20,832 bases of DNA, from IMG/VR virus record IMGVR_UViG_2529293138_000009, positions 1 to 20,832 of that record, one strand, 5' to 3'. Below are positions 9,001 through 12,000 of this stretch, in pieces. Origin of the DNA: a virus. Its lineage: Duplodnaviria > Heunggongvirae > Uroviricota > Caudoviricetes. Position numbers: made by a program. Each line of letters opens with the position of its first letter. The stretch's first letter is position 1.

Positions 9001-12000
9001 GCTCTGCGTTGGCATAACACAAATCTGTCTGTCCGTTTGGGTAAAGAGCGGATATCTGCAGTTTCAAAGAAACTGCGCATGCGCACGAACTATCAAAGAT
9101 AGTGATAACTGAGATAAAAACATATGGAAGCCTTCGGCATTTAAAAATAACAGCAAATCATATAAAAGGAAAGAGATAAGCAACATTTACATAACATGTA
9201 TCACGATACGCCCCAGTGTTAATAAAAGGACTATCACTTTATTCTTTTATAATGTTAGTTTGCACTAGCAAGTGCCACTCCGAACAGAAAAAGGATACAT
9301 GTAATGAAGCTACAGCAATTTAATGTTAAAAATTACAAGTCGATAAAAGATGAAATAGAAGTATATATCGATGATATAGTTGTGCTAATTGGTCCAAATA
9401 ACTCTGGAAAGTCAACAATATTAGATGCGTATGAAAAGTTTGCATCTTTAGGATCAGCAAAAGGCCTGACTGCTCATGATTTTTATAACTCAGATATATC
9501 TATACCAATTGAAATGTGCGGAATTTTCACTGATATCACTGATGATGATATTCGTACATTAGGGGGAGAGAAATGGTTTTATAAAGATGATGCTCTTGAC
9601 AGAAGAAATATGGCAAGAAAGTATGGGGGAGATTGGGAGAAAAATAATACACCATTGGAAAGCAAACTCTATTATTGTGTTAAATGGGTTTGGTCACATC
9701 CAGAAAAAGCAGCCCAAAAACAATCCTATGGCCTTGATGATGCCTCTGGCAAACGCATATTTATTGATGGGGGCTCTGGGGGACTTGACACACTACTACA
9801 AAGCCGAGTTCCTCAACCAATAAGAATAAGCCCAGATAAATCCATGGATGAAACTAAAAAAATTATCATAAGTTTCTTAAAGGAAGATGCAAAAGATGAG
9901 TTACTGAAAACAGGGGAAAGTAAAGCTGATATAATACAGAAAATACAAGAGTTGACAGACACTCTTATGAAAGATTCCAAATCAAAAATCGATGATCTTC
10001 TACAGCAGGTCTCCAAATCATCATCATCTGTTTTTCCTGGGCTAGAACTGGAATTAAACATACTTTCCAAGGATCCCGTAGATGCGGATGTTATGGTTTC
10101 AGAATCTAACCTTACAGTGAAAATGGATGGGATAAATAGCTCTCTTCTCGAGAACCAAGGTCACGGTGTTCGCCGCTCCGTTTTATGGTCTGCTTTGCAA
10201 ATTTTGACTCACGAATCTCATGCACGAGATAAAATAAAAAAAGCGAAAGGTAAGCCTATCTCTGTTGAGAAAAAACAATATATTTTATTGATTGATGAGC
10301 CTGAATCATTTCTTCACCCTCCTATAATTAGAAGTGCGAGGGACTCGCTTTATGATTTTGCAGCAAACAATGATAACTGGCAGGTGATGGCTACAACACA
10401 CTCCCCTGTATTCATAGACTTATCCAAGAAGCACACGACTATAATTAGGATAGAAAAAGACAAATCTCTAAATAAAACAATATCTACAGATGAACTATCT
10501 TTTTCTGAAGAGGAAAAAGATAATATGAAAATGATAAGATTATGTAACCCAATGGTTAATGAGTTTTTCTTTTACGACAATATAATATTAGTTGAAGGCC
10601 CAACTGAAAAAATCGTCATTAACAAAATATGTGATATTGTCGGAGTTGATTATCATATAATTGACTGTTTAGGAAAAGGGAATATAAAAACATTTGCTAA
10701 AATATTAAATCAATTTAACGTTGAGTATATAGCAGTACATGACTCCGACATTCCAAAATGCTTAAAGCAAGGAAGCGTTTCAGGTAATGGAGCATGGGGT
10801 TCAAATGTATCCATAATGAACGAATGCTCTAAAAGTAAAAAACCAATGGTATTTATTCAAATACCTCATTTCGAAGGACTGTTTTTTAAAAATTTCAATC
10901 CATCAAACAAAGTTGAAACAGTAACATCAGTTCTATCTAATAATTTAACACCAGAATATAAAGCAATTTTTGATACATATAGCAGAATCTTAAACAAAGA
11001 TCCATCTGTTTTTATCAGCTCCAACGAAAAAATGATAGACATGTATCATGTATTTTATGCCAGTAATAAAAACCAAATTGAAACGCTAAAAAATCCTGAA
11101 ATCTGGATCCTTTAATTTTTAATGTTGTAATAAATATTATTTAGTAACAACCCTCTATTGAGGGTTGTTTTTAATCATAAGAAATCTGACACACTCTATC
11201 ATACTAAAAATAACACAACATGCATACAAAGTGTTTATATGCATAGACATATTACCTCACATCTGAGTCAATACACTTTAATTTCATTTACCGAACCAAT
11301 TTCTTATTACTGGCATGATAAAAGTTCAACACACGCCGCATAACTTCGCTCTTCCGGCACTCGCGACAGATTATGTTTAGACGCCTGTCATAGCGACGTA
11401 TTTCTCCGTCAGGTAATGACCAGATAAGGTCCGGATCAACCACAACCGGTTTCTTCAGCTTTGCCCTCGATAATTTTTTGCGGGCATTTTGCCAGTCTTT
11501 ACGAGCCTGTTCAGACGGGAATAACCCGTAGCCAGAATTGTATACATCGCCACTGGCAACCAGCTCTCTGGCGAGAACACTCATCAGATATCTTGTCGCA
11601 CCTGTTTTCGCTTCCAGTTGTCGTAACGTCTCGCGCCCTCTCTGGCGCACGAGTTCAACAACCTGCCTCTTAATTTTTTCCCGCTCTTCTTGTGTAAATA
11701 CTTTTGCCACAAGTCCTCCTGAAAATTACCTCATGACCTGAAATAAACACTTACCCCCTGAAGCCCGGTGGAATTTCGGTATCCGGTTCAGAAATATGAT
11801 TCACACAACGCTGGTTGTTCGTGCCGCTTACCGGGAGCAGCCAGGGGTTTTCAAAATTCCGGTCCGGTCCAAAAAACGTCGCCGCTCGCTGAACAAATTC
11901 CGTTCCCGTTTTCCCGGTAGCCGCCAGGTATCTTGCGTAACGCCTCACGCCATCCAGCATGGCCTCTGGTGACACCCCCTCGCGTAATCTGGCCTTCCAG

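What the first reader, a model, noticed from the sequence alone, without database searches (positions are those of the whole stretch)
9200..11175. Stand-alone OLD-family ATPase-Toprim nuclease: candidate single-gene anti-phage system
The 603-aa protein combines an ABC-type ATPase (Walker A GPNNSGKST, Walker B-like LLIDEPESF, H-loop-like TTHSP) with a C-terminal Toprim-like region (ILVEGPTEKI, VHDSD). The gene is markedly AT-rich, has its own promoter-like upstream region and a strong terminator, and runs opposite to the surrounding phage operon. No UvrD-like helicase, retron or other partner is adjacent, so it is class-1-like (P2 Old type) rather than Gabija-like. It is the most plausible defense effector in the window; whether it belongs to a characterised subfamily needs a search.
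Basis: partly seen in the sequence, partly recalled or inferred. Interest (0 to 1): 0.8.

Follow-up and report, generated by a model that had tools for sequence, protein, structure and literature searches.

The report
Stand-alone OLD nuclease on Stx1d prophage
The gene is a real, intact, stand-alone OLD-family ATPase-nuclease, a known kind of anti-phage gene from a subfamily nobody has tested, and it rides as an accessory cassette on a Shiga-toxin (Stx1d) prophage of E. coli.

Summary
Window 9304-11115 (+) encodes an intact 603-aa protein with an ABC-type ATPase (Pfam AAA_15, 1e-29) and an OLD-type Toprim domain (2e-14). All ATPase and metal-binding residues are invariant across 45 homologues. 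The gene has 33.9% GC against 45.9% for the rest of the window, runs against the prophage early operon, and ends in a hairpin terminator.

It is stand-alone, i.e. Class 1. No helicase, reverse transcriptase or other partner recurs beside it in 31 loci. Copies 84-89% identical sit in unrelated contexts, including a P4-like satellite defence hotspot.

The best PADLOC model is "Old" (9e-73), but the protein is only 24% identical to P2 Old, and its last 120 residues do not align with P2 Old. Those residues align instead with Thermus scotoductus OLD. The family equals phrog_4747 ("unknown function"). RefSeq already names the protein "ATP-dependent nuclease".

The host element is an Stx1d-converting lambdoid prophage, which the finding did not mention.

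The likely role is abortive-infection or exclusion defence by an ATP-gated Toprim nuclease. The trigger and substrate (DNA nicks or tRNA) cannot be read from sequence.

Verdict: a new member of a known kind, of moderate interest.

The parts
8911..11315 (.). Accessory ('moron') cassette: AT-rich DNA found only with the OLD gene, inserted between the hok/sok locus and the 3' end of the DUF977 gene of the lambdoid prophage
   Evidence: Homology to thousands of E. coli prophages ends at about 8910 on the hok side and resumes at about 11316 on the DUF977 side. Only 4 of 5426 complete genomes carry the interior. GC is 33.9% against 45.9% for the rest of the window.
9046..9303 (+). Conserved upstream leader/promoter region that travels with the gene
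   Evidence: DNA homology with the Raoultella copy (83%) starts at 9046. Blocks are conserved in the Yersinia, Serratia and metagenomic copies. The promoter itself was not identified with confidence.
9248..9253 (+). Perfect TATAAT box, a candidate -10 element; weak evidence
   Evidence: Read directly from the sequence. There is no good -35 box, and the hexamer is not conserved in homologues.
9291..9295 (+). Shine-Dalgarno sequence AAGGA, 8 nt before the ATG
   Evidence: Seen in the sequence. AAAGGA is conserved in 8 of the 9 aligned leaders (GAAAGGAAT in Ps. retamae).
9304..11115 (+). Gene for the 603-aa Class 1 OLD-family ATPase-Toprim nuclease (stop codon included)
   Evidence: dN/dS is 0.05-0.09 against homologues.
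9391..9417 (+). Walker A / P-loop GPNNSGKST (K36)
   Evidence: G30, N32, N33, G35, K36, S37 and T38 are invariant in 45 homologues. Coordinates.
9589..9675 (+). Insertion specific to the enterobacterial subclade (aa 96-124) in the ATPase N-lobe
   Evidence: Absent from the ~560-aa relatives. A helix at 96-107 is predicted with high confidence. Function unknown.
9844..10269 (+). Helical insertion within the ATPase (aa ~181-322), the equivalent of the OLD dimerization domain; includes the signature-like motif QGHGVRR (aa 285-291)
   Evidence: AF2 predicts long helices 181-202, 218-240 and 287-315 with low pLDDT. Q285, G286, G288 and R291 are invariant. Ts OLD has a dimerization domain inserted in the ATPase fold (PMC7049728).
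10285..10323 (+). Walker B LLIDEPE (D331, E332) and D-loop FLHPP (H338)
   Evidence: Invariant in the family. Aligns with P2 Old IDEPELYLHP, which holds D299 and H306.
10393..10407 (+). H-loop TTHSP (H366)
   Evidence: T364, H366, S367 and P368 are invariant. Aligns with P2 Old STHS, which holds H332.
10585..10614 (+). Toprim glutamates: E431 (metal A) and E435 (metal B) in ILVEGPTEKI
   Evidence: Invariant. Aligns with Ts OLD E377/D381 (residues from PMC7049728).
10735..10749 (+). Toprim DxD motif: D480 and D482 (metal A) in VHDSD
   Evidence: Invariant. Aligns with Ts OLD D431/D433 and P2 Old D453/D455.
10861..10917 (+). Second half of the metal-B site (H522, E524 in IPHFEG) and the invariant K536
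   Evidence: The family profile aligns P-H-F-E-G with Ts OLD P-S478-L-E480-A. E524 and K536 are invariant. K536 aligns with Ts K492, not with the catalytic R487.
11146..11174 (+). Intrinsic terminator: 10-bp stem AACAACCCTC/GAGGGTTGTT, loop TATT, then a T-run
   Evidence: The 70-nt fold is -20.4 kcal/mol, z = -4.66. The Raoultella copy keeps the stem through one compensatory and one wobble change.

Best explanation
The gene encodes a Class 1 (stand-alone) OLD-family protein. Its N-terminal ABC-type ATPase carries an inserted helical oligomerisation module, and this is fused to a C-terminal Toprim two-metal nuclease. The gene is a horizontally acquired, self-contained cassette with its own leader, ribosome-binding site and terminator. 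It sits in a variable-cargo slot of an Stx1d-converting lambdoid prophage.

The most likely role is protection of the lysogen, and hence the prophage, against other phages by exclusion or abortive infection. In the resting state the oligomer would keep the Toprim active sites closed. A phage-associated cue, sensed through the ATPase/oligomerisation module, together with ATP binding or hydrolysis, would open them. The nuclease would then cut nucleic acid and stop phage replication or translation.

Shown here: the domain architecture, the intact catalytic residues, purifying selection, the stand-alone state, mobility as a single gene, and residence in accessory and defence hotspots.

Inferred: anti-phage activity, ATP gating, and the abortive outcome.

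Not resolvable from sequence: the trigger and the substrate. DNA nicking or cleavage, as in Vc OLD, Ts OLD and GajA, is slightly favoured because the Toprim and C-terminal region aligns with Ts OLD rather than with P2 Old. tRNA anticodon-arm cleavage, as in P2 OLD, remains a strong alternative.
For: Architecture:
- Pfam AAA_15 plus OLD-like_TOPRIM.
- Best PADLOC model is Old, E = 9.2e-73, far ahead of AriA and GajA.
- The AF2 model (pLDDT 77.6) matches GajA, Ts OLD and the retron-Eco8 OLD over its full length.

Catalytic competence:
- Invariant in 45 homologues down to 41% identity: Walker A K36, Walker B D331/E332, D-loop H338, H-loop H366, Toprim E431, E435, D480, D482, E524 and K536.
- These map onto residues whose mutation abolishes Ts OLD or P2 OLD activity (PMC7049728; alignments).

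Functional gene:
- dN/dS is 0.05-0.09.
- The identical protein occurs on at least 24 contigs.

Stand-alone:
- No recurrent neighbour in 31 loci.
- Copies 84-89% identical lie in a lambdoid prophage, a Raoultella islet next to SymE, a Pseudomonas site beside a 1003-aa RT, Yersinia elements with a 186-type CI and integrase, and a Serratia P4-like satellite between Psu/Delta and int. The last is the published P4 defence hotspot (PMC9122126, PMC13586616).

Slot is variable cargo:
- The same position in related prophages holds relBE, an AbiH fragment, QueH, an alpha/beta-hydrolase or ParDE.

Defence-island flavour:
- Neighbours of family members include DRT RTs, Type I, III and IV restriction components, Wadjet and Olokun components.

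Precedent:
- Class 1 OLDs from P2, V. cholerae and E. coli (YbjD) give anti-phage phenotypes (PMC12392090, PMC12445682, PMC13261556, bioRxiv 10.64898/2026.07.10.737580).
Against: - No experiment exists for this protein or its clade; literature searches found nothing.
- It is less than 27% identical to every characterised Class 1 OLD.
- The characterised members differ in trigger, substrate and even in whether Toprim is needed, so extrapolating the mechanism is weak.
- The basic residue said to be conserved 7 residues after the metal-B glutamate in Class 1 OLDs is F531 here. Only K536, at +12, is invariant.
- The promoter was not identified, so expression in the lysogen is unproven.
- The defence-neighbourhood enrichment has no background control.
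- An archaeal OLD (Cran1) has a non-defence role (PMC12796447).
Confidence: 0.65

Rival explanations
1. Same protein class and defence role, but the effector works like P2 OLD. Once activated, for example by aberrant DNA structures or origin hairpins of an incoming phage, it cuts the anticodon stem of a subset of host tRNAs. This arrests translation and aborts the infection.
For: - P2 OLD was long thought to be a DNase and is a tRNase in vivo (PMC12445682; bioRxiv 10.64898/2026.07.10.737580).
- The PARIS AriB Toprim also cleaves tRNA.
- The best PADLOC model for the window protein is the P2-centred Old model.
- The ATPase and dimerization region aligns with P2 Old over 480 residues.
Against: - The region after DxD does not align with P2 Old at all; it aligns with Ts OLD instead.
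- P2 K400 in the EGKTE motif is P433 here, as in GajA's EGPSE.
- No tRNA gene accompanies the prophage, which is neutral at best.
- Vc OLD, another Class 1 member, is a DNA nickase (PMC12392090).
Confidence: 0.3
2. It is not a defence gene but serves the prophage's own DNA metabolism. It lies beside the replication module and could help replication, recombination or genome processing, as ABC-ATPase nucleases of the RecF/Rad50/SbcC type do, or as archaeal Cran1 does in the cell cycle.
For: - It sits next to the replication initiator and DUF977 genes.
- It shows fold similarity to the SMC/Rad50 heads.
- An OLD-family protein with a non-defence role exists (PMC12796447).
Against: - It is opposite in orientation to the early operon, AT-rich and has its own terminator.
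- It is absent from almost all related prophages, being present in 4 of 5426 complete genomes.
- The closest Stx1d prophage lacks it.
- The same gene occurs in non-phage islets and in a satellite defence hotspot.
Confidence: 0.06
3. It acts together with an adjacent gene as a two-component system. Candidates are the divergently placed hok/sok type I toxin locus and the HTH-Peptidase_M78 pair further along.
For: - hok/sok lies 580 bp upstream and is divergent.
- The Raoultella copy also has a type I toxin (SymE) divergently upstream.
- An HTH-M78 pair lies at 7431-8269.
Against: - hok/sok belongs to the common prophage backbone found in thousands of genomes without OLD.
- The HTH-M78 pair is absent from strain VG48B2, which has the OLD cassette.
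- Neither is present beside the Yersinia, Serratia or Pseudomonas copies.
- No neighbour family recurs.
Confidence: 0.04
4. It is a selfish or decaying passenger: an addiction-type toxic nuclease that merely stabilises the element, or a silent gene with no current function.
For: - It is very AT-rich and so a likely H-NS target (the H-NS link is inference).
- No clear promoter was found.
- It sits among several toxin-antitoxin loci: hok/sok, PaaA2-ParE and YdaS/YdaT.
Against: - Purifying selection is strong and all catalytic residues are invariant.
- The gene is intact in many independent assemblies.
- It has been acquired repeatedly by different mobile elements.
Confidence: 0.05

Closest known systems
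Thermus scotoductus OLD (Ts OLD, PDB 6p74), Class 1
   Same: It is the best sequence match among solved structures (2.3e-16 for the single sequence, 1.4e-26 for the family profile). It shares the three-part architecture of ATPase, inserted helical domain and Toprim. It is the only characterised OLD whose alignment continues through the whole Toprim, covering E377/D381/D431/D433/S478/E480 against E431/E435/D480/D482/H522/E524. The spacing between DxD and the metal-B glutamate is similarly short (47 against 42 residues).
   Different: Foldseek reports about 16% identity over the full-length structural alignment. Ts R487, the catalytic basic residue, has no counterpart at the same position; K536 aligns with Ts K492 instead. 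The window protein has about 65 further helical residues at the C-terminus. Ts OLD has only been studied in vitro as a non-specific DNase/nickase, with no phage phenotype (PMC7049728, PMC12392090).
Bacteriophage P2 Old (archetypal Class 1 OLD; PADLOC/DefenseFinder 'Old')
   Same: It is a single-gene, prophage-borne lysogenic-conversion gene with its own transcript. It matches the best-scoring PADLOC model. The ATPase and first half of Toprim align over 480 residues with all motifs in register. Both reside in E. coli temperate phages.
   Different: Identity is 24%. P2 Old scores 712 bits end to end on the Old model, whereas the window protein scores 244 bits over model positions 2-454 only. Residues 483-603 are not alignable. 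P2 has about 86 residues between DxD and D541/E543 and has K400 in EGKTE. P2 is a Peduovirus and the gene sits in the gpA-gpQ hotspot next to tin, whereas here it is in a lambdoid early-region slot. Whether the tRNA-Thr(UGU) target and the sensing of RecBCD-related or origin-hairpin DNA apply here is unknown.
Vibrio cholerae Vc OLD (Class 1, DNA nickase, inhibited by ICP1 Oad1)
   Same: It is a stand-alone OLD on a mobile defence element. Defence needs Walker A, Walker B and the DxD residues, all of which are conserved here. It is RecBCD-independent and abortive (PMC12392090).
   Different: The sequence (HAS2513945.1) was not available to the tools, so identity was not measured. Its authors place it in a separate, highly diverged clade with less than 25% identity to P2 and Ts OLD.
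E. coli YbjD / OldB (chromosomal Class 1 OLD)
   Same: It is a stand-alone OLD in E. coli that gives anti-phage phenotypes on induction (PMC13261556).
   Different: Only 26% identity over 178 residues, 39.7 bits. [quoted passage not shown]
Gabija GajA (Class 2 OLD)
   Same: It has the same fold and is the top Foldseek hit (8u7i, 1.6e-20). It shares the EGP(S/T)EKI Toprim motif.
   Different: GajA needs the GajB helicase encoded immediately downstream. No such gene is present here or in 31 related loci. PADLOC GajA models score 1e-25 or worse, against 9e-73 for Old.

Membership tests
OLD family (ATPase-Toprim nucleases) | N-terminal ABC-type ATPase with Walker A, Walker B, D-loop and H-loop | tested here: met
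   AAA_15 at 1.1e-29. K36, D331/E332, H338 and H366 are invariant in 45 homologues. They are in register with P2 Old K37, D299, H306 and H332.
OLD family (ATPase-Toprim nucleases) | Helical dimerization/oligomerisation domain inserted in the ATPase fold | tested here: inconclusive
   The AF2 model shows a helical insertion at about aa 181-322, but with pLDDT of 30-65. The oligomeric state cannot be tested with these tools.
OLD family (ATPase-Toprim nucleases) | C-terminal Toprim domain with the metal-A triad (E ... DxD) | tested here: met
   OLD-like_TOPRIM at 2.4e-14. E431, D480 and D482 are invariant and align with Ts E377/D431/D433.
OLD family (ATPase-Toprim nucleases) | Metal-B ligands (acidic residue 4 after the Toprim Glu; S/T/D-x-E after strand 4) | tested here: met
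   E435 corresponds to Ts D381 and P2 E402. H522-F-E524 aligns with Ts S478-L-E480 in the profile alignment. E524 is invariant and position 522 is H or N.
OLD family, Class 1 | Conserved Arg/Lys 7 residues after the metal-B Glu (Ts R487, P2 K550) | tested here: not met
   Position +7 is F531, and the family consensus there is acidic. The invariant K536 (+12) aligns with Ts K492. It may substitute spatially, but this was not testable without model coordinates.
OLD family, Class 1 | Single gene: no UvrD/PcrA-like helicase downstream, no RT or ncRNA upstream, ATPase and Toprim fused | tested here: met
   The window neighbours are hok/sok and DUF977. No neighbour family recurs across 31 loci. The single gene moves alone between contexts.
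P2 Old subfamily (PADLOC PDLC02358 'Old') | Full-length match to the P2 Old-centred model, including the C-terminal D541/E543/K550 region | tested here: not met
   The match is 244 bits to model positions 2-454 of 578, whereas P2 Old gives 712 bits to 2-578. hhalign stops at DxD. Identity is 24%.
Gabija (Class 2 OLD, GajA+GajB) | GajB helicase gene immediately downstream | tested here: not met
   Downstream lie a terminator and then the convergent DUF977 gene. No helicase-like family is conserved in related loci.
Retron-associated OLD (Class 3) | Adjacent reverse transcriptase and msr/msd ncRNA | tested here: not met
   No RVT hit was found among the window ORFs scanned. Rfam finds only sok, DicF and STnc100. 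NCBIfam retron_eff_Eco8 scores 36 bits against a cut-off of 250. The RT next to the Pseudomonas copy is convergent and is not found at the other loci.
PARIS (Class 4, AriA+AriB) | Separate ATPase (AriA) and Toprim (AriB) proteins, or the AriAB fusion family | tested here: not met
   It is a single fused protein. PADLOC AriA scores 3e-31 and AriAB 1.2e-19, against 9e-73 for Old.
phrog_4747 (phage protein family, function unknown) | Full-length profile match | tested here: met
   E = 3.1e-145, aa 1-602 against profile positions 1-594 of 610.
Anti-phage defence system (functional class) | Reduces phage propagation when expressed, dependent on catalytic residues | not testable with these tools
   Only contextual support is available: a variable-cargo slot, a P4 satellite hotspot and defence genes among the neighbours.

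The most novel reading that the evidence does not exclude
The protein represents a mechanistically distinct Class 1 OLD clade (phrog_4747). It has a Ts-like Toprim, a relocated catalytic lysine (K536) and a clade-specific ATPase insertion. Its trigger and/or substrate would differ from both P2 OLD (tRNA-Thr amputation; sensing of RecBCD-related or origin-hairpin DNA) and Vc OLD (DNA nickase). Because it is carried by Stx1d-converting prophages, it would shape which phages, including other Stx phages and therapeutic phages, can infect these Shiga-toxin-producing E. coli.
Probability: 0.25. Interest if true: 0.55.

Novelty: new member of a known kind. Interest (0 to 1): 0.35.

Why it matters
Class 1 OLD nucleases are rare (0.45% of genomes, PMC12392090), and only P2 Old and Vc OLD are established anti-phage defences; YbjD shows phenotypes on induced expression and Ts OLD has only been studied in vitro. 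These behave differently: P2 OLD is a tRNase, Vc OLD is a DNA nickase, and YbjD does not need its Toprim domain. Each new, well-delimited clade therefore helps show what is general about the family.

This clade is compact and strongly conserved. It moves as a single gene between prophages, satellites and islands, so it is easy to clone and test.

Its presence on an Stx1d-converting prophage gives it practical relevance. It could influence superinfection of Shiga-toxin-producing E. coli by other Stx phages, and their susceptibility to therapeutic or typing phages.

Even so, it would not overturn current understanding. Standard tools already recognise it as OLD-like.

Tried and rejected
1. **Leader structure hiding the start codon.** Arms 9190-9202 and 9294-9306 are 92% complementary. 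They pair in the window's own minimum-energy fold (z = -2.7), and the Raoultella copy seemed to carry a compensatory change. With seven homologous leaders, RNAalifold does not predict the pairing and gives a consensus energy of -1.2 kcal/mol. Rejected.

2. **Sigma-70 promoter.** The scan found nothing convincing just upstream, and its site count did not exceed chance. The TATAAT at 9248 is not conserved. The promoter is left unassigned.

3. **Conserved partner gene.** All-against-all BLAST of neighbours at 31 loci found none. The single apparent 'neighbour' hit (L016) is a frameshifted fragment of the OLD gene itself.

4. **Aligning the C-terminal 120 residues to P2 Old or to any solved structure with the single sequence.** This failed. 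Only the family profile reached the Ts OLD metal-B region.

5. **Accompanying tRNA genes**, as a hint of a tRNase. None found.

6. **Literature on this exact protein, or on OLD genes in Stx prophages.** Nothing found.

7. **Comparison with Vc OLD.** The sequence was not obtainable with the tools.

8. **Residue-level check of the active-site geometry in the AF2 model.** Coordinates are not exposed, so this was not possible.
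Full report

Yes. Window 9304-11115 (+) is a 603-aa ORF with an ATG start. An AAGGA Shine-Dalgarno sequence lies 8 nt upstream.

Pfam gives AAA_15 over residues 1-371 (1.1e-29), AAA_21 (2.9e-16) and OLD-like_TOPRIM over 422-482 (2.4e-14). The gene has 33.9% GC (GC3 27.5%), against 45.9% for the rest of the window. It runs against all the surrounding prophage genes.

The terminator is real, although the simple scanner missed it. A perfect 10-bp stem at 11146-11169 is followed by Ts, inside a fold of -20.4 kcal/mol with z = -4.66. 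The Raoultella copy maintains the stem through one compensatory A-T to G-C change and one wobble change.

The 'promoter-like region' is the weak part of the observation. A perfect TATAAT lies at 9248-9253, but it has no -35 partner and is not conserved. The promoter scan did not exceed chance. On the other hand, 258 bp of leader DNA (9046-9303) travels with the gene between species.

The ORF is not an assembly artefact. The identical protein is called on at least 24 independent contigs.

**2. What is it?**

The protein is a full-length OLD-family enzyme. The best PADLOC model is Old (9.2e-73), and AriA and GajA follow at 3e-31 and worse. The best solved relative by sequence is Thermus scotoductus Class 1 OLD, 6p74 (2.3e-16), followed by GajA. 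An AlphaFold2 model built on 45 homologues (mean pLDDT 77.6, pTM 0.75) matches GajA, Ts OLD and the retron-Eco8 OLD over its whole length.

In the alignment of 45 homologues, which reaches down to 41% identity, every catalytic position is invariant:

| Element | Residues |
|---|---|
| Walker A | G30, G35, K36, S37, T38 |
| Signature-like motif | Q285-G-x-G288-xx-R291 |
| Walker B | D331, E332 |
| D-loop | H338 |
| H-loop | H366 |
| Toprim | E431, E435, D480, D482, E524, K536 |

These correspond to residues whose mutation inactivates Ts OLD (E377, D381, D431, D433, S478, E480) or P2 OLD (K37, D299, H306, H332, E398, E402, D453, D455). The residue lists come from PMC7049728 and the alignments.

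There is one deviation. Class 1 OLDs are reported to keep an Arg or Lys seven residues after the metal-B glutamate (Ts R487, P2 K550). Here that position is F531. The only invariant basic residue nearby, K536, aligns with Ts K492.

The gene is under strong purifying selection, with dN/dS of 0.05-0.09 against copies that are 99%, 83% and 78% identical in DNA.

**3. Is it stand-alone?**

Yes. In the window, the gene upstream is the hok/sok type I toxin-antitoxin locus, and the gene downstream is a convergent DUF977 ('Ren-like'/LygF) gene. No helicase, reverse transcriptase or retron RNA is present among the window ORFs scanned.

I extracted the three genes on each side of the OLD gene at 31 loci from different genera and compared them all against all. 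No family recurs, apart from those shared by two pairs of closely related elements.

Close homologues (84-89% identical) lie in quite different places:
- a Raoultella chromosomal islet next to a SymE toxin;
- a Pseudomonas retamae site flanked by a 1003-aa reverse transcriptase and a helicase-like gene;
- Yersinia elements, just after a 186-type CI repressor and an integrase;
- a Serratia P4-like satellite, between Psu/Delta and the integrase.

The last position is the published defence hotspot of P4-like satellites (PMC9122126, PMC13586616).

DNA homology between the E. coli and Raoultella copies covers just the gene plus 258 bp upstream and 136 bp downstream. The unit of transfer is therefore a single-gene cassette. 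By the published definition (PMC12392090) this is a Class 1 OLD.

**4. Where does it sit?**

The window is an Stx1d-converting lambdoid prophage, which the finding did not mention. ORFs 2221-3168 and 1942-2211 (- strand) encode proteins 100% identical to RefSeq Stx1d subunits A and B. They lie downstream of the Q antiterminator.

Backbone homology to other E. coli prophages stops at about 8910 and resumes at about 11316, so the cassette is about 2.4 kb. Only 4 of 5426 complete E. coli genomes carry it, and no complete genome contains the whole window.

The same slot, between the replication module and hokD, holds different cargo in related prophages:

| Prophage | Cargo in the slot |
|---|---|
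| K-12 Qin | relBE-ydfV-flxA |
| 0H24 | an AbiH fragment |
| E4 | QueH and a methyltransferase fragment |
| O157:H7 | an alpha/beta-hydrolase |
| Closest Stx1d prophage (2014C-3075) | nin-like genes and ParDE |

It is therefore an accessory-gene ('moron') slot. The identical OLD protein occurs mostly in the same Stx1d prophage arrangement. In one contig a pertussis-like ADP-ribosyltransferase toxin replaces stx.

**5. How does it relate to known OLDs?**

It is not a close relative of any characterised one.

- **P2 Old.** Identity is 24% over residues 1-482. P2 Old scores 712 bits end to end on the PADLOC Old model, while the window protein scores 244 bits and aligns only to model positions 2-454. 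A profile-profile comparison also stops at the DxD motif.
- **YbjD/OldB.** Identity is 26% over 178 residues.
- **Ts OLD.** The family profile aligns right through the metal-B site (1.4e-26). The spacing between DxD and the metal-B glutamate is short, as in Ts OLD.

The family is the PHROG family phrog_4747, labelled 'unknown function' (3.1e-145, full length). It has 153 representatives at 50% clustering with E of 1e-30 or better among 1.8 billion proteins. It occurs in Proteobacteria, Bacteroidota, Leptospira, Planctomycetota and, more distantly, Firmicutes.

The enterobacterial subclade has a 25-29-residue insertion (aa 96-124) of unknown role. RefSeq already calls the protein 'ATP-dependent nuclease'.

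**6. How does it most likely work?**

By analogy with the family, the ABC ATPase and its helical insertion hold an oligomer in which the Toprim sites are closed. A phage-derived cue plus ATP binding or hydrolysis opens them, and the two-metal Toprim site cuts nucleic acid. The infected cell or the invading phage genome is disabled, which protects the lysogen population.

- **Shown here:** the architecture, the intact catalytic machinery, selection, autonomy, and location in accessory and defence hotspots.
- **Inferred:** anti-phage activity, ATP gating and the abortive outcome.

The substrate cannot be assigned. [quoted passage not shown] Vc OLD is a RecBCD-independent DNA nickase (PMC12392090). 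YbjD does not even need its Toprim domain (PMC13261556).

I slightly favour DNA nicking or cleavage, because the nuclease half resembles Ts OLD rather than P2 OLD. I give the tRNase alternative about 0.3.

Some context fits a lysogen-expressed exclusion gene. The gene is antisense to the early rightward operon, so lytic transcription would run against it (inference). In the near-identical prophage copies, no Gam, Bet or Exo family appears among the Pfam annotations of the early-left region. A P2-like response to RecBCD inhibition would therefore not necessarily be self-triggered.

**7. Rivals considered**

- A role in prophage replication or recombination is unlikely, given the gene's orientation, composition, sporadic presence and occurrence outside phages.
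- A two-gene system with hok/sok or the HTH-M78 pair is unlikely, because those genes do not travel with it.
- A silent or purely selfish passenger is unlikely, given the strong purifying selection and repeated acquisition.

**8. Supporting but uncontrolled evidence**

Among 101 genes flanking 30 family members, PADLOC models hit DRT reverse transcriptases, Type I, III and IV restriction components, Wadjet JetB/JetC, OloA/OloB and several PDC candidates. This fits a defence-island association, but I ran no background comparison.

**9. Verdict**

'P2 Old type' should be read as 'Class 1 OLD of a distinct, uncharacterised subfamily'.

It is a new member of a known kind. Annotation pipelines and defence-system models already recognise it, so it is not surprising to a specialist. 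It is a clean, testable representative of an unstudied Class 1 clade and lies on a medically relevant Stx prophage. Interest 0.35.

Noticed in passing
window 1942-3168 (- strand): Intact Shiga toxin genes. stxA (2221-3168, 315 aa from the ATG) and stxB (1942-2211, 89 aa) are 100% identical in protein to RefSeq Stx1d subunits A and B, so the window is an Stx1d-converting lambdoid prophage. No complete E. coli genome in the collection holds the whole window (best 65% coverage).
   Followed up: yes
window 8514-8838 (- strand): A hok/sok type I toxin-antitoxin locus lies divergently upstream of the OLD gene: Hok/Gef ORF at 8514-8726 and sok RNA at 8664-8838 (Rfam 116.9 bits). It belongs to the common prophage backbone. 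The Raoultella OLD copy also has a type I toxin (SymE, L002 4857-5324) divergently upstream.
   Followed up: partly
window 7431-8269 (- strand): A gene pair of a 119-aa HTH protein (7910-8269) and a 158-aa Peptidase_M78/ImmA-IrrE-like metalloprotease (7431-7907). It is absent from strain VG48B2, which has the OLD cassette. It may be a regulatory or toxin-antitoxin-like module.
   Followed up: partly
window about 14107-14578 (+ strand): A PaaA2-ParE type II toxin-antitoxin pair in the early-left region. This was inferred from the Pfam annotation of the near-identical prophage copies (L089 12804-13275). YdaS/YdaT-like genes lie at 12893-13617 (- strand).
   Followed up: no
window 16379-16430 (+) and 1669-1861 (-): A DicF antisense sRNA (76.7 bits) in the early-left operon, and an STnc100 sRNA match (64 bits) just downstream of stxB.
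   Followed up: no
window 12352-12693: Origin-like repeats inside the replication initiator gene (11751-12827). There are clusters of CGTGAC iterons at 12395-12433 and 12655-12693, and three tandem 12-nt units at 12352-12387. The prophage's putative origin is therefore about 1.3 kb from the OLD gene. This is of interest because P2 OLD senses hairpins at the lambda origin.
   Followed up: no
L094 1282-2016: A prophage with the identical OLD protein and the same early region carries a 244-aa pertussis-S1/Scabin-like ADP-ribosyltransferase toxin downstream of a different Q-type antiterminator, where this window has stx1d.
   Followed up: no
L003 3562-11058: The Pseudomonas retamae copy (84% protein identity; only the coding sequence is homologous at the DNA level) is flanked by a convergent 1003-aa reverse transcriptase (DRT-like) and a 644-aa SF1-helicase-like gene. 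This looks like a defence island.
   Followed up: partly
L136 744-6493: The Serratia marcescens copy (87% identity) lies in a P4-like satellite. The order is AlpA, Psu-like, Ogr/Delta, an unannotated 194-aa gene, OLD, integrase, then smpB. The 194-aa gene has no family hit.
   Followed up: partly
window 9589-9675 (aa 96-124): The enterobacterial subclade has a 25-29-residue insertion in the ATPase N-lobe that is absent from the ~560-aa relatives. A helix is confidently predicted. Its function is unknown.
   Followed up: partly
window 9190-9202 and 9294-9306: A 13-nt complementarity between the leader and the start-codon region forms in the window's own predicted fold (z = -2.7) but is not conserved in seven homologous leaders.
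   Followed up: yes
window 3955-4779 (- strand): An AT-rich 274-aa CPBP/Rce1-like intramembrane protease gene lies between the Q antiterminator and stxA. It is also present in the closest Stx1d prophage.
   Followed up: no
window 17074-19545 (+ strand): An 823-aa 'exonuclease' with YdfE_N/YdfE_C and Rv2179c-like 3'-5' exoribonuclease domains. Among the Pfam annotations of the early-left region in the near-identical prophage copies, no Gam, Bet or Exo family appears.
   Followed up: no
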